A DNA stretch of 64,000 nt from a virus (IMGVR_UViG_3300047409_000364:1588-65587); one strand, 5' to 3'; shown: positions 48,200 to 64,000, numbered from the stretch's first letter. The notes: generated from the sequence alone by a model not told the origin. Numbers and translations are program-made.

Positions 48200-48432
48200 T
48201 CGACACCTCTCGCCGTAGCTTCCTGTTCGGCGCCGGTGTTGCCTTCGTGGCGGCGCCGGCGATCGTGCGTGTGGCCGCCCATCTCATGCCGGTCAGCACG
48301 AACGCGCTGGCGCCATATCCATATTCAGTGGACGACCTGGCGTTTCTGGAGGGCATGGGCCAGACCATCGAGCAGACGATCTGGTATGGCAATCCAGACG
48401 TCCTGCCGGTCCGCTACAGCGGCTTCGCATGA
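48196..48432 (+). CDS. Twin-arginine-signal-like peptide fused to a major capsid protein fragment
   Basis: SRRSFL leader; DDLAFLEGMGQTIEQTIWYGN versus MCP EDVAFIEGMGQTIEETCWYGN; ATGA-coupled at both ends. Confidence 0.75.
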   Translation: MIDTSRRSFLFGAGVAFVAAPAIVRVAAHLMPVSTNALAPYPYSVDDLAFLEGMGQTIEQTIWYGNPDVLPVRYSGFA

Positions 48433-51467: not shown

Positions 51468-53288
51468 GTGCCTCTTGATAGCGGACCCGGCGACTATACC
51501 CAGCAGGGCGTGACGCTTCTGGCGTCACAGCCCGTTGTCCCGACCCGCACCTCGCCGATCGTCGACAACGAGGACTGGCAGGTCGTCTACAACCACCTCG
51601 AGCGCCGTCTTGCGGCACTGCGCGCCTGGCGCTGGACCCGCTGGGCCGTCTGGCAGGATCTCGGCGCCTACTTCCTGCCGCGGCGCGTGAAGGCCTTTAT
51701 CACCCCGAACAACTACGCGCGTGGACGCTGGCTCAACAACAACATCATCGACTCGACCGGCGTGCAGGCCATGAACACCTGCGCCTCCGGCATGTGGAGC
51801 GGGCTGACCAATCCCGCCCGGCCGTGGATGGAGTTCGCCCCGGCAATCGAGATGCCCAATCTCGACGAGGAAAGCAGGGCTTGGCTGGTCGACCTCAAGC
51901 AGAAGGTCCACGCCGTCCTCGCAAGCTCGAATTTCTACCAGACCACCGCGCAGATGTTCCAGGACACGACCGTCTTTGGCCAGTCGCCGATGCTCGCCTT
52001 CGAAGACAAGGAAGACATCGTCCGCTTCTACCTGCCCTGCGCGGGCGAGTATTTCATCGCCGTCGGCTCGCGCCTCTCCGTCGACACGCTCTACACCGAA
52101 GCCACCTGGACCGTGGCCCAGCTCGTCGAGATGTTCTCGCTCGCCAACTGCCCGGAGAACGTCCAGAAAAACTGGGAAGAAGGGATGTACGACTTCGAAT
52201 ACATCCTGTGCATGGCCATCGAGCCCAACTTCGCCGTGCGCGGCCGCGGCAAGAAGAAGGTCACGGTGATCTCCGGCCGCTTCCCCTATCGCCAAGTCTA
52301 TTGGCTGCGCGGTCAGAAGAATGCCCGCCCCCTCCAGGTGAAAGGCTTCCTCGACAAGCCGTTTATGACGTCGCGGTGGTGGGTCGTCGGCAACGACGCC
52401 TACGCCCGCGGCCCCTGCGAGGATGCGCTCGGCGACAACAAGCAGATCCAGACCGAGACCATGCGCAAGGCCGAGTTCCTGGAAAAGGGCGTGCGCCCGC
52501 CGATGCTGGCCGACCCGGAGCTGAAGAACGAGCCGGCCTCGATCATGCCCGGCATGGTCACCTTCGTTAATACCCAGAACGGCAAGCTCGGCTTCAAGCC
52601 CGCGTTCGAGGTCGGCGCCCAGTGGCTCCAGTACATGACCGCCGACATCAAGGAGGTCCAGGCCCGCATCAAGGAAGCCCTCTACGTCCCGCAGTTCATG
52701 GCGATCACCCAGATGCAGGGCGTCCAGCCCCGCAACGAGCTTGAGCTCACGAAACGTGATCTGGAACGTTTGCAGGTGCTCGGGCCGGTGATCGAGAATT
52801 TCGAGAACGAGGTCGCCCCCATCATCCAGCGCGTCGTGTCGATCATGCAGCGCCGCGGCCTGATCAAGCCGATCCCCGACGGCCTCGCCCGCGTGCCGCT
52901 CAAGATCAACTTCATGTCGCTGATGCGGCTCGCCCAGCGCGCCGCCGAGTCGATCGCCATGAAGGACGGCTTCCAGACCCTCGGCGTGCTCTCGGTCGCC
53001 GCCAAGAACGCCGGAGTGCCCGACCCGCTCCGCGTCATCAACCTCGACAAGTCGGCCAAGCACTATCTCTTCCTCAACAACTACCCGATGGACTGCATCT
53101 TCTCCGACGACGAGGTGAAGCAGCACGACCAGATTCGCCAGCAGGAAGCCGAGCGCGCCAAGCAGGAAGCCGCCGCCTCGCAAATGACCAAGCCCGCAGT
53201 CGACGCCGCCAAGGTGCTCGCCAATACCCAGGTCGGCGGTGGCTCCATGCTGAATTCGATGCTGGGCGGCGGCACGGCGCCGCAATGA
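51468..53288 (+). CDS. Portal/head-tail connector (BPP-1 Bbp21-like)
   Basis: IIDSTG...ASGMWSGLTNPARPW, YARGP...ALGD.KQIQ, LGPVIE. Confidence 0.95.
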   Translation: MPLDSGPGDYTQQGVTLLASQPVVPTRTSPIVDNEDWQVVYNHLERRLAALRAWRWTRWAVWQDLGAYFLPRRVKAFITPNNYARGRWLNNNIIDSTGVQAMNTCASGMWSGLTNPARPWMEFAPAIEMPNLDEESRAWLVDLKQKVHAVLASSNFYQTTAQMFQDTTVFGQSPMLAFEDKEDIVRFYLPCAGEYFIAVGSRLSVDTLYTEATWTVAQLVEMFSLANCPENVQKNWEEGMYDFEYILCMAIEPNFAVRGRGKKKVTVISGRFPYRQVYWLRGQKNARPLQVKGFLDKPFMTSRWWVVGNDAYARGPCEDALGDNKQIQTETMRKAEFLEKGVRPPMLADPELKNEPASIMPGMVTFVNTQNGKLGFKPAFEVGAQWLQYMTADIKEVQARIKEALYVPQFMAITQMQGVQPRNELELTKRDLERLQVLGPVIENFENEVAPIIQRVVSIMQRRGLIKPIPDGLARVPLKINFMSLMRLAQRAAESIAMKDGFQTLGVLSVAAKNAGVPDPLRVINLDKSAKHYLFLNNYPMDCIFSDDEVKQHDQIRQQEAERAKQEAAASQMTKPAVDAAKVLANTQVGGGSMLNSMLGGGTAPQ

Positions 53289-53860: not shown

Positions 53861-54094
53861 CTACTCGAATTGGGGGCTGCGCCGCCGCCCGCCGGTCTGG
53901 TCATAAAGCGGACTTGGCCTATTCAGGAATTCCGCTGTAGGGCCCGACGGCGTTCCGTTCCCGGTCCAATGTTTCTTCCAAGGAGAGGTGGCGTCCCGGA
54001 CTTTTGCTTCCTCGTGATTCCACGGCTTCTTGACCGGCGCGGGCTGCGGCGCTGGCCTGAATAGGCGATGCCAGAGACGGCGGATAAAGTTCAT
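53861..54094 (-). CDS. Hypothetical protein
   Basis: MNFIRRLWHRLF amphipathic start, coupled to the upstream gene. Confidence 0.5.
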   Translation of the reverse strand: MNFIRRLWHRLFRPAPQPAPVKKPWNHEEAKVRDATSPWKKHWTGNGTPSGPTAEFLNRPSPLYDQTGGRRRSPQFE

Positions 54095-54303
54095 TCGACC
54101 CTCACTGCGCGCTTGCGGCGCCACTCGTCCAGTTCGGCCTTGCTGTAAATCACGGTGCGCCAGCCATAGCGCGTGTAGGGCGGGCCCTGACCGGCGTTTT
54201 GCTTCATTGCCATGTTGGCGAGCCGGTTGTGGTCGATCGGACAGCCTTGGCTTCGCAGGTACGCCGCGGCCTGTTTGCGATTCAGGAAATCGTCAGCAGC
54301 CAT
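54091..54303 (-). CDS. Excisionase/AlpA-like HTH protein
   Basis: FLNRKQAAAYL...LANMA...GPPYTRYG.RTVIYSKAELDEW. Confidence 0.8.
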   Translation of the reverse strand: MAADDFLNRKQAAAYLRSQGCPIDHNRLANMAMKQNAGQGPPYTRYGWRTVIYSKAELDEWRRKRAVRVE

Positions 54304-54834: not shown

Positions 54835-55223
54835 TGGCCGGCGATGATGACGACAAACCCGTCGACCAGCCCGAAGTCCTCCCCGACCAGCAAAGCGCTG
54901 TCGATCCCAAGGAAGCTGAGCGTCGCGAAAGCAAAAAGCAGCTCGCCGAGCGCCGGCGCCGCGAGTGGCTTGCCGAACAGCTCCGAAATCCGATCGCCCG
55001 CGAGTTTCTGTGGGGCATTCTCTGGTCGGCCGGCACCTTCGAAGAGAAGTACGGCTTTGGCCCCAACGGCGAGCCCAACGACCGGGCGAGCGAATACTTC
55101 CTCGGACAGAAAGACCTTGGGCTTCGGCTCTATCACTCGTGGTCGGTACTCGACCGTGCCGGCGTTCTTTCTCTGCTCGATGAGTACCACCCGACCTTCC
55201 CCAAGCCCCGGAAAGGTAAGTGA
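54834..55223 (+). CDS. Bbp19-like protein
   Basis: LRNPIAREFLWGIL..AGTF...FLGQKDLGLRL; position between portal and scaffold. Confidence 0.7.
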   Translation: MAGDDDDKPVDQPEVLPDQQSAVDPKEAERRESKKQLAERRRREWLAEQLRNPIAREFLWGILWSAGTFEEKYGFGPNGEPNDRASEYFLGQKDLGLRLYHSWSVLDRAGVLSLLDEYHPTFPKPRKGK

Positions 55224-56146
55224 TGGCTGATCCGGTTGAGCCAAAGGAAACCCCGGTCGCCAGCGAAGCTCCGCCTGTTGTGACGGAGGCGCCGCCGGTT
55301 GCCGCGTCAGAGTCCGCTCCGATCCCTTCGGCGGACCCGGCACCTACAGCCGACTCCTCCCCAGGTGGCGAGGCCCCGGCGGCGCAGTCTCAACCGGAGC
55401 GCACGCCCAGCCTGCTCGAGGCCGCGATCGCGCCAGGCACCGAAGAGCCGAAGGTAGAAACGCCGCCCGCGGAAAAGGTTCCCGAGGCGAAACCCGCCGA
55501 GGAAAAGGCCGCCGAGCCGCCGAAGGCAGAGGCCAAGCCGGAGGAAAAGCCGGCTGAGACCAAGGCGGAAGAAAAGCCGCCAGAGCCCACGAAGCCCGAG
55601 CCCATCGAGTACCTGTTCAAGGCGCCCGAGACCCTGCAGATGGACGACGCCGTGCGCGGCGAGTTCACCACGGCGCTCGACGAGTTCCGCGCCGACCCGC
55701 AGGCCGGTTCCCAGAAGCTCCTCGACATGCACGTCGCCCAGCTCGTCAAGCACGACGAGCACCTGCGCAACGAGCAATACCGGATTTTCAACGAGACCAA
55801 GAAGGGCTGGCGCGACCAGGTCCAGGCCGACGAGATGCTGGGCGGCCCCGGTCATCGCACCGCGATGGGCCAGGTCGCCATGGTCCGCAATATGTTCGTG
55901 TCCGACCATCCGCAGGGCTCCAAGCAGTGGAAGGCCGATCTGCAGGAATTCAACAACGCCCTGGACGCTACCGGCGCCGGCGACCACCCCGCAATCCTGC
56001 GGGTGCTCTATCGCATGGCCCGCTTCGTCAATGAGCCGTCGATCCCGACCACCGTCGATCCCAAGCCCGCGCCGGGTGCGGGTAAGCGCAATGGCGCCGA
56101 TACGCTGTACGACAACGACCGATCCCCGCGCGGGAATTCTCAGTAA
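55220..56146 (+). CDS. Capsid scaffolding protein
   Basis: P/E/A/K-rich N-half, LDATGAGDHPAILRVLYR, C-terminal ADTLYDNDRSP; directly upstream of the MCP. Confidence 0.85.
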   Translation: MMADPVEPKETPVASEAPPVVTEAPPVAASESAPIPSADPAPTADSSPGGEAPAAQSQPERTPSLLEAAIAPGTEEPKVETPPAEKVPEAKPAEEKAAEPPKAEAKPEEKPAETKAEEKPPEPTKPEPIEYLFKAPETLQMDDAVRGEFTTALDEFRADPQAGSQKLLDMHVAQLVKHDEHLRNEQYRIFNETKKGWRDQVQADEMLGGPGHRTAMGQVAMVRNMFVSDHPQGSKQWKADLQEFNNALDATGAGDHPAILRVLYRMARFVNEPSIPTTVDPKPAPGAGKRNGADTLYDNDRSPRGNSQ

Positions 56147-56158
56147 AGGAGAGATAAA

Positions 56159-57205
56159 TTGGCTACAGGTTCTTGGATCACGCTTGCTGATCTTACCTCC
56201 CGCATGGATAGCGCGGACAAGCAGGCCTACATCGCCGAAATGCTGTCGCAGAGCATTTCGCTCTACCAGGACATGCCCTTCAAGGAAGGCTCGGAGATCT
56301 TCGGACACGAAGGCGTGTTCCGCTCCTCCATCCCGGCCGGATCGTGGCGCTACCTCAACGGCGGCACCGCCTACGGCAAGTCGACGACCGGCAAGTTCCG
56401 TATCGGCATGGGCTCGCTGACGGGCTACAGCCAGATCGACAAGCTCTTGGCCAAGGCCTCGGGCAACGTGCCGATGTTCCGCAAGAACGAGGACGTCGCC
56501 TTCATCGAGGGCATGGGCCAGACCATCGAAGAGACCTGCTGGTACGGCAACACCGCGACCAACCCGGCCTCCTTCATGGGCCTGTCGACGTTCTACAACA
56601 CGACCTCACAGACCACCGCGCAGAATGCGCAGAACGTGATCGACGCCGGCGGCACCGGCTCCGACAACGCTTCGATCTGGCTGGTGTGCTGGGGCGATCG
56701 CACGATCTACGGCACCTACCCGCGCGGCTCCAAGGCGGGCCTTGTGTCGGAGGATCTGGCTGACACGCGCGCCGCCTACGACAACCTCGGCAATCCCTAC
56801 GAGGCGTGGACGACCTACTTCGAACAGAACATGGGCATCTTCCCGGAAGACTGGCGCCAGGTCGGCCGTATCGCCAACCTCGACGTCACCTCGGCTGGCC
56901 TCGCCGGCTCCAACGCCTACGACCTGTTCCTCGGCCTCTCGAGCCTGGTCATGCTGCCGCCGATGCTGACCTCCGAGTCGTCCGGCATCACCTCGACCGA
57001 CGCGCCGAACGATCCGGCGCCGGGCATCCGGCCGGTCATGTACACCAACCGCACCATCCGCTTCTGGATGGACGCCCAGGGCATGCGCGATCGCAACGTC
57101 CTGATCTCGATCAACGAGGCGCCCGGCAAGGTCCAGGACCGCTTCCGCGGAATCCCGGTCAAGGTCTCGGACAGACTTTTGACAACTGAAGATGCTGTAG
57201 CTTAG
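56159..57205 (+). CDS. Major capsid protein (BPP-1 Bbp17-like)
   Basis: TLADL, IAEMLSQ, EDVAFIEGMGQ, DAGGTGSDNASIWLVCWG, DWRQVGRIANLD, FRGIPV; TTG start with AAGGAG RBS. Confidence 0.95.
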   Translation: MATGSWITLADLTSRMDSADKQAYIAEMLSQSISLYQDMPFKEGSEIFGHEGVFRSSIPAGSWRYLNGGTAYGKSTTGKFRIGMGSLTGYSQIDKLLAKASGNVPMFRKNEDVAFIEGMGQTIEETCWYGNTATNPASFMGLSTFYNTTSQTTAQNAQNVIDAGGTGSDNASIWLVCWGDRTIYGTYPRGSKAGLVSEDLADTRAAYDNLGNPYEAWTTYFEQNMGIFPEDWRQVGRIANLDVTSAGLAGSNAYDLFLGLSSLVMLPPMLTSESSGITSTDAPNDPAPGIRPVMYTNRTIRFWMDAQGMRDRNVLISINEAPGKVQDRFRGIPVKVSDRLLTTEDAVA

Positions 57206-57259
57206 CCGTCCGACATTGTAAGTCGAACGCACAAAGGCTTTGTAAGAAGGAGAATTCCA

Positions 57260-57820
57260 TTGGCTATCAATGACGCACTACTCGCGTTCGTGCCGTACAA
57301 CGCGCCTCTGTCGCTGGTTGGCGGCGCGGGCGTCGATTTCGCGACCGACCCCTACGACATCCTGGGTGCGGGTGCGGGCACGCTCGTGACCAACATCTGG
57401 GGCAACTCGACCCTGCCGGGTCAGGCTGACGGTCTCTCCGTCGGCATGCCGCAGCCCTACATCTCGGTGCTGATCGGCACCGCGCTGGTGGCCAACACCG
57501 GCACGCCGCTCTTGAACGTCCAGTTCCAAGGCGCCCCGGACAACGGCTCGGGCTCGCCCGGCACCTACCTGACTTACGCCCAGACCGGCGACATCACCGT
57601 CGCACAGGGCACCGCCGGCACCGAGATCTGCCGGCTGCCGTTCGTGCCGCCGTTCCCGCTTAACCACCGGCCACGCTTTCTGCGGCTGAACTTCGCGATT
57701 GCGGCGGCGACTGACTACAGCGCCGGCACCATCTCCTCGGCCTATGTCGTCGGCACGCGCGACGACCAGTACCAGTTCCAGGCCGCGAAGAACTACACCT
57801 CGCCCCGCTACACCGGGTAA
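57260..57820 (+). CDS. Capsid cement/decoration protein (Bbp16-like)
   Basis: MAINDALLAF start, LNVQFQGAPDN, RFLRLNF; follows the MCP. Confidence 0.75.
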   Translation: MAINDALLAFVPYNAPLSLVGGAGVDFATDPYDILGAGAGTLVTNIWGNSTLPGQADGLSVGMPQPYISVLIGTALVANTGTPLLNVQFQGAPDNGSGSPGTYLTYAQTGDITVAQGTAGTEICRLPFVPPFPLNHRPRFLRLNFAIAAATDYSAGTISSAYVVGTRDDQYQFQAAKNYTSPRYTG

Positions 57821-57829
57821 GGGTGAACC

Positions 57830-58600
57830 ATGGCACGCAAGTCCAAGGCCCAGATCGAGGCCGAAACGCTCGCCCGGCAGGAGGAGCTTAACCAGGCGTC
57901 CGAGAAGCGGGCGATGGATATGTTCTCCGGCTTCATGGCGAAGTTCATGGAGCAGATCGGCCAGGCGCGTGTTGCAACCGGCGGCGAGGCGCCTGCCTCC
58001 GCCGCCGAGGGCGACCGCAAGCTGGCGGATCAACTCGCGCACGCCATGATGACGGCGTCGGCTACGCCATCGAAGCGGGCCGCGCTGATTGCACCGGAGG
58101 AACGCGCCGCTCGCGATGCCGCCCGCCAGCAAATGATCGACATCATCGTCGCCAACAACGCCAAGGGGCTCGTGCCGATCTACCGCGTCACGCGCAAGAC
58201 GTTCCTGGCCGAGACGATGGTCGACCCGCAGTTCCGCGATCCGCAGAGCAAGCAAATGGTCGACCAGGAGATCAACTATCGTGGCATCCCCAACCAGGCG
58301 ATGACCCCGATCACGCGACCGCCCAACACCGAAAGCGAAGAGGCGCGGTTCGCCGCCGGCAAGCTGGTCTACGATATGTACCTGCGGTCGATCGGCAACC
58401 AGCCGGTGATCAACGCCAACATGCCTTCGCAGTGGGTGACCAGCGGCAAGGAATTGCTGCGCGGCAATCCCGCGCCGGCCCCGTCCCCGCTGGCCCAGAT
58501 TGCGCCCGGTGACGATCCGCGCCGCCTCGGCCCGCAGCAGGGTGCTACCACTGTCCGCCTGCTCGGCAAGACCGCAGAGCCGGCGGTGATCACGCCGTAA
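57830..58600 (+). CDS. Hypothetical late protein
   Basis: Operon position and codon usage. Confidence 0.65.
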   Translation: MARKSKAQIEAETLARQEELNQASEKRAMDMFSGFMAKFMEQIGQARVATGGEAPASAAEGDRKLADQLAHAMMTASATPSKRAALIAPEERAARDAARQQMIDIIVANNAKGLVPIYRVTRKTFLAETMVDPQFRDPQSKQMVDQEINYRGIPNQAMTPITRPPNTESEEARFAAGKLVYDMYLRSIGNQPVINANMPSQWVTSGKELLRGNPAPAPSPLAQIAPGDDPRRLGPQQGATTVRLLGKTAEPAVITP

Positions 58601-58610
58601 GGAGTACCCC

Positions 58611-59477
58611 GTGGGCGTTAATGCAGCTAGCGACGTATCGGCGTCGGGCGTTTCGCCTTATGCGCCCCACGACTGGGCCAACAGCGTCCTCTCCGGCACC
58701 TTCAGCGACGAGCAGGTGTCGGCGCCGCTGGCCATCTATGGCTGGTTCAATGTGTCGATCTGGGCGAGCTATTCGAGCTCGCTGGCAACCACGGCGAATT
58801 CGCTCAGCGCCACCATCGGCACGGCGGGCTCGATCGCCAAGGGCAACAGCATCTACTCGACCAACACGCCGGCTGGCGCGACCATCCAGGGCGTGTCGGG
58901 CACGACGCTGACGCTCTACCTGCCGCCGGTCACCATCCGCGGCCGCGCGGTTGTTGGCAGCACTCACATCACGGGGCTCAACTCGACCGATGGCCTGACC
59001 GGAGCCGCCATCACCGGCCTCGGAGTCCCGGCGTCTACCACGGTGTCGTCGATCGTCACGGCCGCCGTGGCGGCCACCGCCAACTCGCCCGGCGTGAAGG
59101 GCGAGATCATCATCTCCAATCAGATCACGGCGACGACGGCTGACAGTTCCGACACGCCCTTCGTGTTTGTGCGCGACGGTCACGGCATTACCGCCAGCGC
59201 GACTGACAGCGCCGCGGTGTACGTCGGCAACGAACTCACCTTCAGCGGCACTATCCAACTCGAGCGCAGCTTCGATGGCGGCCACACTTGGATCCCTTGC
59301 TTCGCCTGGTGGGGCGGCAGCCAGCTCAAATGGACGACCGAGATGTCGACCGTCCTGATGGAGCCCGAGAAGGGGGTTTTGTATAGATTGAATTGTGTAG
59401 CGTACACCAGTGGGACGATGAATTATCGCATCAGCACCACCGGGCAGGCCGCTACTACCTTGAATGTTCCCCTATAG
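58611..59477 (+). CDS. Beta-rich virion protein
   Basis: FNVSIW...FSGTIQLERSFDGG.TW...EPEKGVLYRLNC.AYTSGT.NYRIS with a Thr-rich insert. Confidence 0.7.
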   Translation: MGVNAASDVSASGVSPYAPHDWANSVLSGTFSDEQVSAPLAIYGWFNVSIWASYSSSLATTANSLSATIGTAGSIAKGNSIYSTNTPAGATIQGVSGTTLTLYLPPVTIRGRAVVGSTHITGLNSTDGLTGAAITGLGVPASTTVSSIVTAAVAATANSPGVKGEIIISNQITATTADSSDTPFVFVRDGHGITASATDSAAVYVGNELTFSGTIQLERSFDGGHTWIPCFAWWGGSQLKWTTEMSTVLMEPEKGVLYRLNCVAYTSGTMNYRISTTGQAATTLNVPL

Positions 59478-59996
59478 CAGGCGAGCGAATTCACCATGAA
59501 GTTCCTTCGCCCTCTTACAATACGCATCGTAGGCCCCCTGCGGGGTCGCGAAGTATCCGAGCGAATAGCTGACGTTCTGGAAGCGGATCTCAGCGCGCCA
59601 GCGCCCTGTCGGTTTGAAATAGAAGACTCCCTTGTATCCGCTCTTGTTGAGCCTTGTGCGCGTTCTGTTGCATCGGTTTTGAGAGACCGTGGCCAGTCGA
59701 AGATTGGCCCAGCGGTTGTCGCCTCGAATCATGTTGATGTGGTCGACTTGGCTCGCGGGCCATGTGCCGGTCATCCAGAACCACGCCAGCCGATGGCAGC
59801 GAACCAACATACGGCCCACTCTAATTTGGGAATATCCGCTTGGAGCCAGCGTGCCCGCCGGTTTGCCGGCATAGCGCAAGTTCCATCCCGCCCAGTTGGA
59901 TGGGCGAGCGAGCCAAGTGAACACGCCAGTTTCGGGATTGTAGTGAAGCATCTTCTTGATGCTGTCGTGATCAAGGGACAGACTTTTCTTAGCCAT
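59472..59996 (-). CDS. HNH homing endonuclease with AP2-like C-terminus
   Basis: YNPETGVFTW, HRLAWFWMTGTWP, VDHINMIRGDNRWANLR, SGYKGV, LHGEFAR. Confidence 0.9.
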   Translation of the reverse strand: MAKKSLSLDHDSIKKMLHYNPETGVFTWLARPSNWAGWNLRYAGKPAGTLAPSGYSQIRVGRMLVRCHRLAWFWMTGTWPASQVDHINMIRGDNRWANLRLATVSQNRCNRTRTRLNKSGYKGVFYFKPTGRWRAEIRFQNVSYSLGYFATPQGAYDAYCKRAKELHGEFARLL

Positions 59997-60077
59997 TCGG
60001 AGATCGCCTTCTTCGATAGGTTAGAGGCGGTCGCCGCGTTGATAGCGCCGCGATCGCCTCGCGCATCTTACTTCATT

Positions 60078-60116
60078 ACTGGCCACGCGGCCACGACCCT
60101 CAACGTGCCCCTATAG
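60078..60116 (+). repeat. Displaced copy of the 3' end of gene 58611-59477
   Basis: Encodes TGHAATTLNVPL* versus TGQAATTLNVPL* at 59439-59477. Confidence 0.85.
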
Positions 60117-60126
60117 GAGCGCATCA

Positions 60127-61134
60127 ATGACCACTCCCTTCGTTCCCGGCGCTGTTATGGTCGATCCGCTCGACGGCACCGAGGAGCTTTCAATCTTCAC
60201 CGTGGGGCCGACGTCGGCCAAGACCACGACCCAGGCCATTGCCGACCTCGCCGTAGGAAGCGAGAACGTGCAGACCGGCATTACCGCCCATTCGACCGGC
60301 GGCCAGACCAGCGCATGGCAACTGACCAATGGCATCAACAACGTCACCACCGTGGCGGCGGCCAATGACAGCGTTAAGCTGCCCAGCGCCACCGTCGGCA
60401 ATGTGGTGACGGTGATGAACAACGGCGCCAATGCCATGCAGGTGTTCGGCACTTCACCCGACACCATCAACAGTATCGCCACGGCGACCGGCGTCTCGCA
60501 GCTTTCCAAGACGGTCGAAACCTACACCTGCGTGGTGGCGGGCAACTGGATCCGCGACCAGGTCGTGCAGGCGTTCTCGACGATCACCGCGACGAACCCG
60601 CCGACCCAACGCAACTACTACGGCGCGGTCACGCTCAATTTCCAAGGCACCGTCACGATCGCCAGTGGCAACGGCTCGGTGGCGGGCGGCCGCGGCGAGG
60701 TTATTGGCGCCACCGGAACCACGCTGAGCGACGGCTTCTACTATGGTCTGCAGGGCAAGTTCACGCTCGGTGGCGCGACCATCTCCGAGGTCTCGGCCTC
60801 GCGCTATGTCGGCGTCATCGCCCAGTTGGATCTCTCCTCGGGCACCATGACCTCCGGCCAGGTGTCGGCTTTGTGGGCCGACATGGGGGCCACAGCGGCG
60901 GGTGCGTTCGCCGCCGAGACCAACATCGTGCGCGCGACCAACACGACCGCCTCGACCGTCAACGCCATCCTCTACGGCTACGGCAAGGCGACCTACGTCA
61001 TGGATCTGTCGGCCAATGGCGGCACTAACCTCTCGACCACGGGCACGGCGGGTGCCACGGCAACCAAGGGCTGGCTGAAATGCTTTGTCGCCGGCGTCGT
61101 CCGCTACATCCCGCTCACCGACTCGGTGTCCTGA
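60127..61134 (+). CDS. Fibre-like virion protein
   Basis: TAHSTGGQTSAWQL...NVTTVAAANDSVKLP; ends GWLKCFVAGVVRYIPL. Confidence 0.65.
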   Translation: MTTPFVPGAVMVDPLDGTEELSIFTVGPTSAKTTTQAIADLAVGSENVQTGITAHSTGGQTSAWQLTNGINNVTTVAAANDSVKLPSATVGNVVTVMNNGANAMQVFGTSPDTINSIATATGVSQLSKTVETYTCVVAGNWIRDQVVQAFSTITATNPPTQRNYYGAVTLNFQGTVTIASGNGSVAGGRGEVIGATGTTLSDGFYYGLQGKFTLGGATISEVSASRYVGVIAQLDLSSGTMTSGQVSALWADMGATAAGAFAAETNIVRATNTTASTVNAILYGYGKATYVMDLSANGGTNLSTTGTAGATATKGWLKCFVAGVVRYIPLTDSVS

Positions 61135-61328
61135 TGGATCGCGAAGCTCTCGAAAAGCGCATCGCCGACCTCGAGAAGGGGTCGCAGAGCCTCGCCGAGA
61201 TGATCGAAAAGCTGGGCCGCGACCTCACCGCCACGCGCGGCGCGCTCGATGAAAACCGGCGCTGGCTCGCCACGCTCGAGCCGGTAGAGACCAACGTCTT
61301 TCCTCTCCCGCAAGGAGCAGCATCGTGA
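61134..61328 (+). CDS. Small coiled-coil protein (fibre chaperone-like)
   Basis: Heptad repeats; follows the fibre-like gene. Confidence 0.55.
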   Translation: MDREALEKRIADLEKGSQSLAEMIEKLGRDLTATRGALDENRRWLATLEPVETNVFPLPQGAAS

Positions 61329-61810
61329 AGAAACTCATCGCAATCGTCGCCGGTCTCGGCGTTCTCTTGGGCGGGGTAGTCTTCGCCCAGACCCCGATCC
61401 CCTACGTGACGTCTCTCGGACAGAGCGACATCATGCAGGCGATCAAGAATGCCAATCCCCAAGCCGGCAATACCTATGCGACCCTGACGCAGCTCCGGGC
61501 CTGGTTGCTCGGGGGCGCCAGCGGACACTCCGCTACGCCCAGCCTCGGGGCAACCTGTGGCACGGCACCGGCGATCGTCGGTTCCGACTTCGCCGGCCGG
61601 GTGACGGCTGGGACCGGCACCCCGACCTCGTGTGTGGTCACCTTTGCCTTGGCTTTCACGGCCGCGCCGGCCTGCGCCGTGGCTTCGGAGACCGCACCGG
61701 GCACGACGACGCCGCACTACACGATTTCCACGACCGCCATCACGATCACCCAGGCGGCCAACGATTCGACCATCTACGATTTCATCTGCATCGCCAAGAA
61801 CGGCGGCTAG
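61325..61810 (+). CDS. Signal-peptide beta-rich protein, paralog 1
   Basis: Sec-type leader ending VFA-Q; four Cys; VTFALAFTAAPACAV. Confidence 0.75.
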   Translation: MKKLIAIVAGLGVLLGGVVFAQTPIPYVTSLGQSDIMQAIKNANPQAGNTYATLTQLRAWLLGGASGHSATPSLGATCGTAPAIVGSDFAGRVTAGTGTPTSCVVTFALAFTAAPACAVASETAPGTTTPHYTISTTAITITQAANDSTIYDFICIAKNGG

Positions 61811-61819
61811 GAGCGCACC

Positions 61820-62302
61820 ATGAAGAAACTGATCTACGGCATTGCGGGCATTGTCGCCCTGGCGGCCGGCCTGGCGTTTGCCCAAACCCAGATCCCCTAT
61901 GTGGCGTCGCTGGGCCAGGCCGACATCCAGCAAGTCATCAAGAATGCCAACCCGCAAGCGGGCAACACCTACGCCACGATCACCCAGCTTCGGGCGTGGA
62001 TCCTGGGTGGCGCTTCGGGCCACTCGGCCGTGCCGACCATCGGTTCGTGCGGCGGCGGTACGCCGACCATCGTCGGTTCCGACTTCGGCTTCCGGGTTAC
62101 CCAGGGCACCAGCGCCACGGGCTGCGTCGTGACGTTCGCGGCGGCCTTCGCCACCATCCCAACCTGCGTGGCAGTCAACGAGACAGCGCCCGGCACCTCA
62201 ACGCCGGCCTACTCGGTGACGACTACTGCAATCACCCTGGTGACGGCGAGCACGTCCGGCGAGATATGGGACGTGGTCTGCGTCGCCCGTAACGGCGGCT
62301 AG
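61820..62302 (+). CDS. Signal-peptide beta-rich protein, paralog 2
   Basis: Leader ending AFA-Q; shares KNANPQAGNTYAT.TQLRAW.LGGASGHSA with paralog 1. Confidence 0.75.
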   Translation: MKKLIYGIAGIVALAAGLAFAQTQIPYVASLGQADIQQVIKNANPQAGNTYATITQLRAWILGGASGHSAVPTIGSCGGGTPTIVGSDFGFRVTQGTSATGCVVTFAAAFATIPTCVAVNETAPGTSTPAYSVTTTAITLVTASTSGEIWDVVCVARNGG

Positions 62303-62478
62303 TGCCCAACCTTAGCGAGGCGCAGCGGGGCGCGATGGCCGCCGCTGCGGCTGGCGAGTCGACGCTCGGCATCCCGAAGAAGGTGGGTGCCGAGTTCATG
62401 GCGAGCGACAAGGGCGGGAAGCTGCCCGAGAAGGTGAAGAAGAAAAACCCGCTGCACGATCACGACAGGTCACCATGA
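62302..62478 (+). CDS. Small basic protein (58 aa, missed by the ORF track) with LHDHDRSP tail
   Basis: MPNLSEAQRGAMAAAAAGESTLGIPKKVGAEF...; coupled at both ends. Confidence 0.75.
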   Translation: MPNLSEAQRGAMAAAAAGESTLGIPKKVGAEFMASDKGGKLPEKVKKKNPLHDHDRSP

Positions 62479-62711
62479 AGCTCCCCGCCATGACTGAGGT
62501 CAAAAGTTCCAACATCAAGGCCCTTGGGTACGATAACCGGGGGCTTTTTGTGCAATTCATCGGCGGCGGCGCCTACCATTACCCGGATGCGCCGCGCAGC
62601 GTGTTCAACGATCTGATGGGCGCGGAGTCGGTCGGCAAATTCTTCAGGGCCGAGGTTGGTCCGAAGTTCAAGCACCGGAAACTCGACGATGCCCAGCCTC
62701 ACGCTAGCTGA
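62475..62711 (+). CDS. KTSC domain protein
   Basis: VKSSNIKALGYD..LFVQF..G.AYHY.D.P..VF..LM.AESVGKFF. Confidence 0.85.
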   Translation: MKLPAMTEVKSSNIKALGYDNRGLFVQFIGGGAYHYPDAPRSVFNDLMGAESVGKFFRAEVGPKFKHRKLDDAQPHAS

Positions 62712-62736
62712 CCTGAGCTCGAGGAGCACGAAGCCC

Positions 62737-63000
62737 ATGGCGCGCAAGATCAAGAAGCACCTCTCCGCCAGCCAGCGCCGCGCGCTGCCGTCGAAGGACT
62801 TCGCGCTGCCCGGCAAGGGGAAGGGCCCAGAAGGCAAAGGCTCCGGCGCGTATCCGATCAACGACGAGGGCCACGCCAAGGCAGCGCTGTCGCGCGCCGC
62901 AGCGAATGCCTCTCCCGCCGAGCAGGCGACGATCAAGGCGAAGGTCCACGCCAAGTATCCCGGCATGAAGCTGCACGATCATCCAAGGTCACCCAAGTAA
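62737..63000 (+). CDS. Basic DUF6582-like protein with LHDHPRSPK tail
   Basis: RRALPSKDFALP...YPINDEGHAKAALSR; GAGGAG RBS. Confidence 0.75.
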   Translation: MARKIKKHLSASQRRALPSKDFALPGKGKGPEGKGSGAYPINDEGHAKAALSRAAANASPAEQATIKAKVHAKYPGMKLHDHPRSPK

Positions 63001-63245
63001 TGGCCGACAAGCTCAAAGAAGCGGTCGACGCACAGGAGGCGGATCCGCCAGCCAAGTACAATCCACTGCGGGAGTGGCCTGGATTGAGGAAGGGCAATCG
63101 CGGCAGATTCGCAGACGAGTTTAAGAGCGACCTTGCCACCGCGAAGGCGGCCGATGAGGCCGACGAAGAGGACAAAAAGGACGCGGCGGCCCGACGGGCA
63201 AAGCGCCGGGCCGCCCTCTACGATAACGATCGGAGCCCCAAGTAA
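63000..63245 (+). CDS. Small charged protein with LYDNDRSPK tail
   Basis: TAATG-coupled. Confidence 0.75.
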   Translation: MADKLKEAVDAQEADPPAKYNPLREWPGLRKGNRGRFADEFKSDLATAKAADEADEEDKKDAAARRAKRRAALYDNDRSPK

Positions 63246-63246
63246 C

Positions 63247-63633
63247 GTGGCCGCCAAGGACGACGACAATGACGGCGACGACGACACCTTCGACACGGCG
63301 CTGGGGGTGCGCGCCTCTCAGATCGAGGCCCAGCATGCCCGCGAGCAGCAGGAATTGATGGCGGCCCAGGCCAAGCAGCAGGCGGCGCTGGCAGCGAGTC
63401 ATCCCGTGCTGACGGCGGCCCCGCAGGCAGCGCAGCAGGTGGCGCCGTCGAATCAGACAGCGTCGGGCGAAGGCGGCGGGGCGAGCGCGGCGTCGGGCGC
63501 CGGCAACGCTTCTGGCGCGGGGACCGGAGAAGGTTCCAGCCAGGGCCAGGGGCCGGGGAGCGATAGCGGCGACGGCGGTGGCGGCACGGGCGGCGGGGGC
63601 AGCACCGGCGGGGGCACCGGGGGCACCTACTGA
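63247..63633 (+). CDS. Acidic/Gly-rich low-complexity protein
   Basis: GTG start directly after the previous stop. Confidence 0.55.
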   Translation: MAAKDDDNDGDDDTFDTALGVRASQIEAQHAREQQELMAAQAKQQAALAASHPVLTAAPQAAQQVAPSNQTASGEGGGASAASGAGNASGAGTGEGSSQGQGPGSDSGDGGGGTGGGGSTGGGTGGTY

Positions 63634-63884
63634 TGGCAAAGAAGAAACTCTCTCACGCCGAATGGAGCGGGTTGTTCGAGCGCCGGATGGTTCGGCACGA
63701 CCAGGTCCACAAGGAGCACGAGGCCAGCCGGAAGAAGATGTTCGACGAGCACACCAAGGCCCGTCAGGAGATGCACGATCGCCAGCAGGCGACACGCCGG
63801 GCGATGCACGAGGAACATTTGAAGAGCTTGCCGGTCGAGAACAAACCCAATCCGCTGTACGATAACAAGCGCAGCGCGCAATAG
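63633..63884 (+). CDS. His-rich coiled-coil protein with LYDNKRSAQ tail
   Basis: TGATG-coupled; H/E/R/K periodicity. Confidence 0.75.
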   Translation: MAKKKLSHAEWSGLFERRMVRHDQVHKEHEASRKKMFDEHTKARQEMHDRQQATRRAMHEEHLKSLPVENKPNPLYDNKRSAQ

Positions 63885-63894
63885 GAGCTAGGCC

Positions 63895-64000
63895 ATGGCC
63901 GACGGAAATTCACTGTATGACAACAAAAAGTCTGAGAAATCCGGCGAGAAGAAAGCCGCTCCCGAAAAGGAGAAGGTCGTCGATAAGCCCAAGGAGGCCG
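63895..64000 (+). CDS. K/E-rich protein with N-terminal LYDNKKS (3' truncated)
   Basis: AGGAG RBS; MADGNSLYDNKKSEKSGEKK... Confidence 0.7.
   Translation, partial: MADGNSLYDNKKSEKSGEKKAAPEKEKVVDKPKEA

What the first reader, a model, noticed from the sequence alone, without database searches (positions are those of the whole stretch)
55220..64000. Scaffold C-terminal peptide reused on five unrelated small proteins: candidate capsid cargo-loading tag
Seen: the scaffold ends ADTLYDNDRSPRGNSQ (motif 56105-56128). The motif L[YH]D[NH]x[RK]S also closes 62302-62478 (PLHDHDRSP), 62737-63000 (KLHDHPRSPK), 63000-63245 (ALYDNDRSPK) and 63633-63884 (PLYDNKRSAQ), and opens 63895- (SLYDNKKS). The carrier proteins are otherwise unrelated, and the motif is always terminal. 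Codons diverge synonymously (ctg tac gac aac gac cga tcc ccg vs ctc tac gat aac gat cgg agc ccc), so conservation acts on the peptide. Known: scaffold C-termini bind the coat interior in P22-type phages, and short targeting peptides load cargo in encapsulins and T4 (CTS). Inference: this phage docks basic, His-rich and charged cargo (DNA-condensing, metal-binding or injected anti-defence proteins) into procapsids by mimicking the scaffold.
Basis: partly seen in the sequence, partly recalled or inferred. Interest (0 to 1): 0.88.

Follow-up and report, generated by a model that had tools for sequence, protein, structure and literature searches.

The report
Scaffold-tail address tag on phage proteins
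This soil phage and its relatives put the short tyrosine-containing peptide that ends their head-scaffolding protein onto the ends of many unrelated small proteins, most likely as an address label that brings them into the assembling virus head, though no binding or packaging has been measured.

Summary
Observation confirmed. L[YH]D[NH]x[RK]S occurs six times in the six-frame translation of the 65.4-kb circular phage contig. All six are on the + strand and terminal: the scaffold C-terminus, four small-protein C-termini and one N-terminus. Shuffles give 0.01 per genome.

In related contigs every scaffold seen ends in a hydrophobic-Tyr tail. In the clade with [LMIV][YH]D[NH]-type tails, 47 non-redundant further copies sit on at least 12 unrelated families, one of them a ferritin/Dps-like protein. 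34 are C-terminal, 13 N-terminal, none internal and none on the minus strand.

The residues flanking the Tyr on small proteins match the phage's own scaffold tail more than other scaffolds' tails (p about 5e-5 and 1e-4). Identical peptides use different codons. Exceptions exist (L024, L112, L114).

The best reading is scaffold-tail mimicry that targets proteins to the procapsid. The receptor (probably the capsid protein) and packaging itself are inferred only. The one complex prediction gave no verdict.

The closest known cases are 80alpha scaffold/SaPI1 CpmB, T4 and P1 capsid targeting sequences, and encapsulin cargo peptides. I rate this a new variant of a known kind.

The scan has noted the same phenomenon before on other DNA (e1-6136654, e1-6107285 and others).

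The parts
55223..56146 (+). Scaffolding protein (307 aa). It has a disordered Pro/Ala/Glu-rich N-terminal third, an all-helical domain and a disordered C-terminal tail.
   Evidence: It lies between the portal (PF12236) and the major capsid protein (PF20911). No Pfam family matches; it matches phrog_458 at E 2.4e-13. AF2 gives helices at 142-270 with pLDDT above 90 and residues 1-130 and 271-307 at low confidence. 16 homologues were found in the large protein collection.
56105..56125 (+). Scaffold tail tag LYDNDRS (residues 295-301 of 307)
   Evidence: The equivalent tail is present in 13 of 13 relatives whose scaffold end lies in the first 15 loci.
56159..57205 (+). Major capsid protein (348 aa, BPP-1/epsilon15 type), the inferred but unshown receptor of the tail
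   Evidence: PF20911 at E 2e-91. Solved relatives are 3j4u, 3j40 and 8cjz.
62302..62478 (+). g1, 58 aa, family F1, with C-terminal tag LHDHDRS at 62452-62472
   Evidence: 23 blastp hits, redundant loci included. It matches phrog_16759 at E 3e-5.
62475..62711 (+). g2, 78 aa, KTSC-domain protein inside the cluster, untagged
   Evidence: PF13619 at E 1.4e-14. It is conserved in relatives.
62689..63000 (+). g3, 103 aa, family F4, with C-terminal tag LHDHPRS at 62971-62991. Its N-terminal peptide LTLADLSSR (62698-62724) resembles the capsid protein's N-terminus.
   Evidence: It matches phrog_16160 at E 6.7e-8.
63000..63245 (+). g4, 81 aa, no homologue in fetched loci, with C-terminal tag LYDNDRS at 63216-63236
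63247..63633 (+). g5, 128 aa (GTG start), with an acidic N-terminus and a Gly-rich C-terminus, untagged
63633..63884 (+). g6, 83 aa, no homologue in fetched loci, with C-terminal tag LYDNKRS at 63855-63875. The other copy of the contig overlap reads KRR.
63895..64000 (+). g7, start of a 130-aa His-rich protein (family F3) that continues across the contig junction. Its N-terminal tag LYDNKKS is at 63913-63933.

Best explanation
The peptide is a portable short linear motif: a basic stretch, then a hydrophobic residue and Tyr, then lineage-specific flanks (here L[YH]D[NH]x[RK]S). It sits on the disordered C-terminal tail of the scaffolding protein.

By analogy with other scaffolds, this tail is the part that docks the scaffold on a phage-encoded site in the assembling procapsid. 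That site is most likely the inner face or N-terminal region of the major capsid protein.

Small late proteins encoded 6-8 kb downstream in the same structural operon carry the same peptide on a disordered end. They would therefore occupy the same docking sites and be built into procapsids together with the scaffold. They then either stay with the DNA (many are Lys/Arg-rich, His-rich or ferritin-like) or leave with the scaffold.

Shown: the motif, its strictly terminal position, its spread over unrelated families, and its partial co-variation with the phage's own scaffold tail under peptide-level selection.

Inferred: the identity of the receptor, incorporation into procapsids or virions, and what the cargo does.
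For: 1. The motif is non-random. Six hits, all terminal and all on the + strand, against 0.01 expected.

2. It is reused in relatives.
- In 27 loci whose scaffold ends in the A-type tail (323 kb) there are 27 further A-type hits on the + strand and 0 on the minus strand.
- In 30 loci with a YPNLP tail (330 kb) there are 0 A-type hits.

3. The non-redundant set holds 31 scaffolds plus 47 other copies. Of the 47, 34 lie 0-10 residues before the stop, 13 lie 3-15 residues after the start, and none is internal.

4. The carriers fall into at least 12 blastp families besides the scaffold. One is a ferritin/Dps-like protein, L006:7753-8241, PF00210 at E 3.4e-20.

5. The tags co-vary with the scaffold tail.
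- Strict tags against the own scaffold tail: 5.54 of 7 identical, against 4.86 +/- 0.15 when scaffolds are permuted among 18 loci (41 pairs, p about 5e-5).
- Tails of homologous small proteins anchored at the Tyr: 0.455 against 0.284 +/- 0.029 (24 loci, 40 pairs, p about 5e-5).
- Among the 9 non-canonical loci: 0.379 against 0.139 +/- 0.051 (14 pairs, p about 1e-4).
- Examples are HGGFYE/HGGFYD/HGGMYD (L044), FYTKN/YYTKG (L048), six [EQ]ALYG copies (L046), RRYS/RRYK/KRYA (L062), KARMYPSM/AERMYKHK/RARLYPRS/RERMYGG (L092) and NSLYASK/KSLYREKS/HNLYKQR/GSLYGG (L093).

6. Selection acts on the peptide, not the DNA. The two SPLYTHPTS copies of L039 differ in 7 of 9 codons, and the window's copies differ likewise.

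7. The F1 homologues in YPNLP-tail phages end without any Tyr tail (L071, L084).

8. The tail lies in a predicted disordered stretch after an all-helical domain.

9. The scaffold's other conserved peptide (TPSLLE) is not reused: 33 hits, all in scaffolds.

10. There is a precedent. The C-terminal 16 residues of the 80alpha scaffold and of SaPI1 CpmB share an RIIK helix-and-hook that binds the capsid protein's N-arm (PMC5644958, passages read).
Against: - No binding, procapsid or virion data exist for any member.
- No cultured relative was found. The best capsid-protein match among deposited phages is 40.6% identical, and the scaffold has 3 weak matches.
- Co-variation is not universal. L024 has scaffold MYPSMQN but an N-tag LYDHPSS.
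- Of 46 new scaffold-bearing metagenome loci only 2 held a small-family homologue. In both (L112 with scaffold LYAQK, L114 with LYNQK) the small proteins keep LYD[HK], so only Leu-Tyr is shared. The replication set was therefore too small to test.
- The permutation tests do not remove relatedness among loci.
- The scaffold assignment rests on gene order, composition and predicted fold. Pfam has no family for it, Foldseek found no PDB match at E <= 0.001, and the matching PHROG is labelled 'protease'.
- Proteins of 6-15 kDa that bind like the scaffold could also leave like the scaffold, so being targeted does not prove being packaged.
Confidence: 0.6

Rival explanations
1. The tagged proteins are assembly modulators, not cargo. 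By competing with the scaffold tail for the same site they tune scaffold occupancy, nucleation or shell size, as SaPI1 CpmB does with the 80alpha scaffold, and they leave before or during DNA packaging.
For: The sequence evidence is the same as for the main reading: a shared tail that co-varies. The only structurally solved natural case of scaffold-tail mimicry, CpmB, is a competitor that redirects capsid size (PMC5644958). The proteins are small enough to exit with the scaffold.
Against: At least 12 unrelated carrier families, including a ferritin/Dps-like protein and His-rich or Lys-rich proteins, are hard to explain as regulators of one interaction. The carriers are encoded by the phage itself, several per genome, and differ between close relatives.
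Confidence: 0.15
2. The tail is recognised by a partner other than the capsid shell. That partner could be the scaffold's own helical domain, the portal or terminase, or a host chaperone or protease (a timing or degradation signal shared by late proteins).
For: No result identifies the receptor; the complex prediction gave no verdict and is not counted either way. An earlier scan note on a related lineage reports the tag on a portal too (e1-6107285). In L060/L062 a 572-aa ORF upstream of the scaffold has ERARY 17 residues before its end.
Against: Lineage-specific flanks that change together in scaffold and small proteins point to a fast-evolving phage-encoded partner rather than a conserved host factor. 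In this window's clade the portal-like ORFs end GGGSxLNSxLGG-like, without the tail. Where it has been studied, a scaffold's extreme C-terminus binds the coat protein: 80alpha in PMC5644958, and P22 by recall. If the partner is the scaffold core, the outcome (procapsid targeting) is the same as in the main reading.
Confidence: 0.17
3. The repeats are not a peptide signal at all. They would be chance, low-complexity composition, or a DNA/RNA element (such as the ribosome-binding site of the next gene) that happens to be read as this peptide.
For: In several C-terminal copies the Arg-Ser codons (AGG TCA, CGG AGC) lie 8-15 nt before the next start and could add to a Shine-Dalgarno site.
Against: Shuffles give 0.01 hits per genome. 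The minus strand of 323 kb has 0 hits. Codons for identical peptides differ freely, including Arg as CGA, CGT, CGC, CGG, AGA or AGG. N-terminal copies and the scaffold copy have no downstream start to serve. The motif is always at a protein end.
Confidence: 0.02

Closest known systems
Phage 80alpha scaffolding protein and SaPI1 CpmB (shared C-terminal RIIK 'helix-and-hook'; PMC5644958, passages read)
   Same: A second, otherwise unrelated protein carries the scaffold's C-terminal peptide and so uses the scaffold's docking site on the capsid protein. The tail sequences are interchangeable.
   Different: There is one mimic, encoded by a satellite, and it acts as a competitor that changes capsid size. 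Its tail is a helix plus hook. Here 5 or more carriers per genome are encoded by the phage itself, the tag is a short disordered Tyr motif, it also works from N-termini, and binding has not been shown.
Capsid targeting sequences of T4 internal proteins and of P1 DarB (PMC9024508, passages read; T4 details as cited there)
   Same: A short terminal peptide is sufficient to bring unrelated proteins into the phage head. The cargo includes proteins delivered with the DNA.
   Different: The T4 and P1 signals are N-terminal. T4's is removed by the head protease and, by recall, is not a copy of the scaffold's own tail. Here most tags are C-terminal and identical in kind to the scaffold tail, and no head protease was found among the 20 proteins scanned with Pfam.
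Encapsulin cargo-loading peptides (recalled; cargo and scaffold are compared in general terms in PMC13669383, passages read)
   Same: An HK97-fold shell, a short disordered terminal peptide on unrelated cargo, and a ferritin-like protein among the cargo (L006).
   Different: Encapsulins have no scaffold, portal or DNA. Their peptide consensus (recalled) is unlike this one. Here the tag is shared with a true scaffold of a DNA-packaging phage.
Herpesvirus scaffold (UL26.5) and protease-scaffold (UL26) shared C-terminus (recalled; only search listings seen)
   Same: A non-scaffold function, the protease, enters the procapsid through the same C-terminal capsid-protein-binding tail as the scaffold.
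   Different: There the shared tail comes from nested in-frame genes. Here it sits on separate, unrelated genes with different codons.
P22 scaffolding protein C-terminal coat-binding domain, used to load engineered cargo into P22 particles (abstracts in the listing; details recalled)
   Same: Fusing a scaffold's coat-binding end to a foreign protein encapsidates it. This is the engineered counterpart of what these phages appear to do naturally.
   Different: The P22 element is a folded helix-turn-helix domain of tens of residues and its use for cargo is man-made. Here the element is about 7-10 residues in a tail that AF2 leaves unstructured.

Membership tests
Phage scaffolding protein (for 55223-56146) | Gene lies between the portal and major capsid protein genes in the head module | tested here: met
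   Portal at 51468-53288 (PF12236) and capsid protein at 56159-57205 (PF20911). The same order holds in the relatives.
Phage scaffolding protein (for 55223-56146) | Mostly helical protein with flexible ends | tested here: met
   AF2 gives helices at 142-270 with pLDDT above 90, and residues 1-130 and 271-307 at low confidence.
Phage scaffolding protein (for 55223-56146) | Sequence or fold match to a characterised scaffold | tested here: not met
   No Pfam family. A profile search of PDB sequences gave nothing relevant. Foldseek against the PDB found no match at E <= 0.001. It matches phrog_458, which is labelled 'protease'.
Phage scaffolding protein (for 55223-56146) | Present in procapsids, absent from virions, required for assembly | not testable with these tools
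   This needs particles.
Scaffold-tail mimicry (80alpha SP / SaPI1 CpmB type) | Non-homologous protein ends in the scaffold's C-terminal peptide | tested here: met
Scaffold-tail mimicry (80alpha SP / SaPI1 CpmB type) | The tail binds the capsid protein at the scaffold's site | not testable with these tools
   The one complex prediction allowed gave no verdict. This needs cryo-EM or binding assays.
Scaffold-tail mimicry (80alpha SP / SaPI1 CpmB type) | Mimic is encoded by a satellite and redirects capsid size | tested here: not met
   The carriers lie in the phage's own late operon, several per genome.
T4-type capsid targeting sequence | N-terminal position | tested here: not met
   34 of 47 non-scaffold copies are C-terminal and 13 are N-terminal.
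T4-type capsid targeting sequence | Removed by a head maturation protease at flanking cut sites | tested here: inconclusive
   No protease family was found among the 20 window proteins scanned with Pfam, but not every ORF was scanned. Cleavage cannot be tested here.
Encapsulin cargo-loading peptide | Short terminal peptide shared by unrelated cargo of an HK97-fold shell | tested here: met
.
Encapsulin cargo-loading peptide | Shell without portal, scaffold or genome packaging | tested here: not met
   A portal, a scaffold and a terminase-like 851-aa ORF are present.
P22-type scaffold coat-binding domain | Folded C-terminal helix-turn-helix | tested here: not met
   AF2 places no helix after residue 270, and the tag at 295-301 lies in a stretch with pLDDT about 50.

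The most novel reading that the evidence does not exclude
These podophages run a natural, modular, encapsulin-like cargo-loading system. A 7-10-residue Tyr peptide copied from the scaffold tail docks on the lumen of the capsid protein. It loads a changeable set of proteins (ferritin/Dps-like, His-rich, Lys-rich DNA binders) that travel with the genome into the next host. The same peptide-pocket pair co-evolves lineage by lineage, giving orthogonal tag/shell pairs. This would link phage scaffolds and encapsulin cargo peptides mechanistically. Two families may add a second address copied from the capsid protein's own N-terminus.
Probability: 0.3. Interest if true: 0.85.

Novelty: new variant of a known kind. 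Interest (0 to 1): 0.66.

Why it matters
If the tail is a true procapsid address, three things follow.

- It would be a naturally modular way for tailed phages to load several changeable proteins into the head. The signal is minimal (about 7-10 residues, usable at either end) and would be simple to exploit for packaging proteins into phage particles.
- The lineage-specific versions (LYDHPRS, ALYG, HGGFYD, RRY, RMYP and others) would be ready-made orthogonal tag/shell pairs.
- A ferritin-like carrier in a phage with an HK97-fold shell bears on the proposed kinship of phage procapsids and encapsulins.

A prophage of this group in a cultured Rhizobium strain (L091) makes the idea directly testable. 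I found no description of such a system in four full-text searches.

Tried and rejected
- Complex prediction of the capsid protein (alignment A2, 28 rows) with g3 (alignment A4, 3 rows) scored 0.00 in two runs against a mark of 0.32. That is no verdict; controls were not run. I do not count it for or against binding.
- Foldseek of the scaffold model against the PDB found no match at E <= 0.001.
- A profile search of PDB sequences with the scaffold alignment gave nothing relevant.
- phmmer of the 186-aa protein after the capsid gene against PDB sequences gave nothing, so its identity as a cement protein is unproven.
- A blastn search of 62000-64000 against deposited phages found no match.
- A tblastn search of the scaffold against deposited phages gave 3 weak hits, so there is no cultured close relative.
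- The replication of co-variation on metagenome contigs did not yield a test. Of 80 loci, 46 held a complete scaffold not seen before, but only 2 held a small-family homologue.
- My first regex classes were too narrow. I first took B-type (MYPSM) loci to lack tags. Reading L092 showed RMY/RLY tags there.
- My first script for the N-terminal peptide found only 2 loci and I rewrote it.
- My GC3-based gene calls fail on lower-GC loci, so counts rest on stop-to-stop frames and blastp, not on those calls.
- I rejected a host-protease degron as the main reading, because the flanks change with the phage lineage.
- I rejected a DNA-level element, because the codons differ.
I resent it with the content unchanged.

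Full report
**What the DNA is.** The window is bases 1588-65587 of a single 65,587-nt contig. The contig's two ends overlap by 178 nt with one mismatch, so it is a circular or terminally redundant phage genome of about 65.4 kb.

The head module on the + strand holds these genes:
- a T7-type portal at 51468-53288 (PF12236, E 1.5e-102);
- two conserved small proteins;
- a 307-aa protein at 55223-56146;
- a BPP-1/epsilon15-type major capsid protein at 56159-57205 (PF20911, E 2e-91).

The solved relatives of the capsid protein are 3j4u, 3j40 and 8cjz. The best match among deposited phages is only 40.6% identical, and the scaffold has three weak matches there. No cultured close relative is therefore on record. 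A relative of the scaffold lies in a 2.56-Mb contig titled Rhizobium sp. BK313 (L091), so the group includes prophages of Rhizobiales.

**The scaffold.** The 307-aa protein has no Pfam family. It matches phrog_458, which is labelled 'protease', at E 2.4e-13. AF2 on a 19-row alignment gives a disordered N-terminal 130 residues, five helices spanning 142-270 at pLDDT above 90, and an unstructured tail at 271-307 that contains the tag at 295-301. Foldseek found no PDB match at E <= 0.001. I call it the scaffold on the grounds of gene order, size, composition and predicted architecture. That is an inference.

**The observation.** L[YH]D[NH]x[RK]S occurs at 56105, 62452, 62971, 63216, 63855 and 63913, and nowhere else in six frames of the genome. 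All six copies are on the + strand and terminal. Shuffles give 0.01 hits per genome, with a maximum of 1 in 200.

The carriers form a tightly coupled cluster:
- g1 at 62302-62478, C-terminal tag;
- g2 at 62475-62711, KTSC domain, no tag;
- g3 at 62689-63000, C-terminal tag;
- g4 at 63000-63245, C-terminal tag;
- g5 at 63247-63633, no tag;
- g6 at 63633-63884, C-terminal tag;
- g7 from 63895 across the junction, 130 aa, N-terminal tag;
- g8, an acidic protein after the junction, no tag.

g1, g2, g3, g7 and g8 have homologues in related contigs. g4, g5 and g6 have none in the loci fetched.

**Relatives.** Fifteen viral contigs with a capsid protein 57-87% identical were fetched. All 13 that include the scaffold's end carry [LM][YH]D[NH][PD]RS there, and small ORFs 5-7 kb downstream carry it too.

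A search with a scaffold alignment returned 80 loci. Every scaffold ends in a hydrophobic-Tyr tail, but in several versions:
- [LMIV][YH]D[NH]x[RKST]S in 27 loci;
- LY[NT][NH]P[TRS]S in 4;
- MYPSM in 6;
- [AL][ML]YPNLP in 30;
- others in 13.

In the 27 A-type loci (323 kb) there are 27 further A-type hits on the + strand and none on the minus strand. In the 30 YPNLP loci (330 kb) there are none, and the YPNLP tail is not reused either.

After removing redundancy there are 31 scaffolds and 47 other copies. Of the 47, 34 lie 0-10 residues before the stop, 11 lie 3-15 residues after an in-frame Met, and 2 lie 6 and 11 residues after a GTG start. None is internal.

All-against-all blastp puts the carriers into these families:
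- the scaffold family;
- four recurrent families: F1 (13 copies), F2 (12), F3 (N-tagged and His-rich, 11) and F4 (6);
- eight singletons.

The alignment shows that F4 is really two unrelated bodies that share only their two ends. One singleton is a ferritin/Dps-like protein (L006:7753-8241; PF00210 at E 3.4e-20 over residues 7-144 of 162). Its tail RRKIYDHPRSM follows the domain.

For strict tags, identity to the phage's own scaffold tail is 5.54 of 7. When scaffolds are permuted among 18 non-redundant loci it is 4.86 +/- 0.15 (41 pairs, p about 5e-5).

I then took all homologues of F1, F1b, F2, F2b, F4 and F4b found by blastp, whatever their tails, and anchored each tail at its last Tyr.
- Flank identity to the own scaffold is 0.455 against 0.284 +/- 0.029 (24 loci, 40 pairs, p about 5e-5).
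- Within the 9 loci whose scaffold tail is not canonical it is 0.379 against 0.139 +/- 0.051 (14 pairs, p about 1e-4).

Examples:
- L044: scaffold HGGFYE; F1 HGGFYD-stop; F2 HGGMYD-stop; F3 N-terminus ..RHGGMYDD.
- L048: scaffold GFYTKN; F2 SYYTKG-stop.
- L046: scaffold EALYG plus five more [EQ]ALYG copies.
- L062: RRYS, RRYK and KRYA.

Two lineages fetched later from genome contigs behave the same way:
- L092: KARMYPSM with AERMYKHK, RARLYPRS and RERMYGG.
- L093: NSLYASK-stop with KSLYREKS-stop, HNLYKQR-stop and GSLYGG.

F1 homologues in YPNLP-tail phages end without any Tyr (L071, L084).

Identical peptides within one genome are encoded differently. The two SPLYTHPTS copies of L039 differ in 7 of 9 codons, and the window's two LYDNDRS copies differ in 5 of 7. 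Recent gene conversion therefore does not explain the match; selection acts on the peptide.

**Results against a simple co-variation rule.**
- L024 has scaffold MYPSMQN but an N-tag LYDHPSS.
- L007/L008 scaffolds have LYDNPRS, while their F1 and F2 tails are shortened to AFYDKKK, AFYGKKG, PLYNKRKD and PLYRKD.
- The metagenome scan, meant as a fresh replication, gave 80 loci. 46 of them held a complete scaffold not seen before, but only 2 held a small-family homologue. In both (L112 with scaffold LYAQK-stop, L114 with LYNQK-stop) the small proteins keep LYD[HK], so only Leu-Tyr is shared. That set is too small for a test.
- The permutation tests keep column composition but not the relatedness of loci.

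The invariant core is a hydrophobic residue plus Tyr after a basic stretch. The flanks often follow the scaffold, but not always.

**Mechanism.** The comparative data show that the scaffold tail and the small-protein tags are functionally equivalent peptides under joint selection. Their partner changes with the phage lineage, which points to a phage-encoded partner.

In 80alpha the scaffold's C-terminal 16 residues, and the matching end of SaPI1 CpmB, bind the capsid protein's N-arm (PMC5644958, passages read). The same holds for P22, by recall. The most likely partner here is therefore the capsid protein in the procapsid, and the most likely consequence is co-assembly of the tagged proteins with the scaffold. 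This step is inferred.

The one complex prediction I could run (capsid protein with g3) gave no verdict. No head protease family was found among the 20 window proteins scanned with Pfam, so I have no basis for a clip-off mechanism of the T4 kind. Whether the small proteins stay in the DNA-filled head or leave with the scaffold is open.

**Comparison with what is known.** Natural capsid targeting by short terminal peptides is known for T4 internal proteins and P1 DarB (PMC9024508, passages read). Scaffold-tail mimicry is known for CpmB. The herpesvirus protease shares the scaffold's tail through nested genes (recalled; only listings seen). Encapsulins load ferritin-like and other cargo by terminal peptides (recalled). 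A 2026 paper compares encapsulin cargo and phage scaffolds only in general terms (PMC13669383, passages read).

Four full-text searches turned up no description of a phage that puts its own scaffold's tail peptide on many unrelated proteins. I therefore rate this a new variant of a known kind.

The scan itself has noted the same phenomenon on other DNA. Two notes appear to concern the same scaffold family: RR(E/Q)ALYG in e1-6136654, and RRY with ferritin-like carriers in e1-6107285. I saw those variants myself in L046 and L060/L062. These notes are not independent evidence.

**A second shared peptide, followed up only partly.** The N-termini of F2, both F4 bodies and one N-tagged protein read M-x-x-L-[TS]-[LM]-x-D-[LM]-x-S-R. 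This resembles the capsid protein's own N-terminus (MATGSWITLADLTSR here). The pattern has 30 hits on the + strand and 0 on the minus strand in 1.18 Mb, redundant loci included. Identity to the own capsid protein is 5.17 of 9 against 4.60 +/- 0.21 permuted (12 loci, p about 0.008).

There is a caveat. The Arg codon is AGG in 12 of 15 copies and a second Met follows 1-4 codons later. The S-R part may therefore be held by a Shine-Dalgarno site for an internal start, and the long form may be one of two isoforms.

In BPP-1 the capsid protein's N-terminal peptide extends outward and augments a beta-sheet of the cement protein (PMC3863775, passages read). This peptide could thus address a different partner than the Tyr tail. 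I leave it unexplained.

**Verdict.** I rate the finding a new variant of a known kind, with interest 0.66.

Noticed in passing
window 62698-62724 (g3) and 56177-56203 (capsid protein); L003, L013, L026, L038-L045, L092, L093: A second shared terminal peptide. Several tagged small proteins open with M-x-x-LTLADLSSR-like residues that resemble the capsid protein's own N-terminus, with weak co-variation (p about 0.008). The Arg codon is AGG in 12 of 15 copies and a second Met follows closely, so an internal start with its own ribosome-binding site may be embedded.
   Followed up: partly
L006:7753-8241: A ferritin/Dps-like protein (PF00210, E 3.4e-20) in the small-gene cluster of a related phage ends in RRKIYDHPRSM, that phage's scaffold-type tail.
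   Followed up: partly
L091 (record titled Rhizobium sp. BK313, contig NZ_JACHZQ010000001.1, range 2188194-2208793): A prophage of this group sits in a cultured strain. It has scaffold tail IYDHPRS, F1 ending LYDKKRSS, F2 ending LYDHPRSKKD, and F3 opening MAKSPLYDRGK. It is a possible bench system.
   Followed up: partly
window 63855-63875 and the other end of the contig: The two copies of the 178-nt terminal overlap differ at one base. This changes the last tag residue of g6 from Ser (KRS) to Arg (KRR), a likely population variant inside the motif.
   Followed up: no
window 53861-54124 (-): A minus-strand 87-aa ORF between portal and scaffold ends ..RPSPLYDQTGGRRRSPQFE, a tag-like peptide 14 residues from its stop. 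Its GC3 is 0.69 and it has no homologue in the fetched loci. It may not be a gene.
   Followed up: partly
window 48429-50984 (+): An 851-aa ORF ahead of the portal, in the terminase position, carries LAGLIDADG/Hom_end homing-endonuclease domains at residues 257-342. This suggests an intein or inserted endonuclease.
   Followed up: no
window 13579-19920 (+): A 2113-aa protein carries an LPD38 'large polyvalent protein' domain at residues 1624-1791 (E 1.9e-32).
   Followed up: no
window 55397-55420 (scaffold residues 59-66): A conserved ERTPSLLE peptide lies inside the scaffold's disordered N-terminal part. Unlike the tail it is not reused elsewhere: 33 + strand hits, all in scaffolds.
   Followed up: partly
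after the contig junction (genome 469-768) and L005:15696-16040, L006:9545-9874: The acidic protein g8 is conserved in nearly all relatives. It is untagged here, but in L005 and L006 it ends PLYDRT and PLYDRD. The tag is therefore gained or lost within a family.
   Followed up: partly
window 61325-61810 and 61820-62302 (+): Two tandem paralogues of about 160 aa with signal-peptide-like N-termini lie just upstream of the tagged cluster. Neither matches a PHROG family.
   Followed up: no
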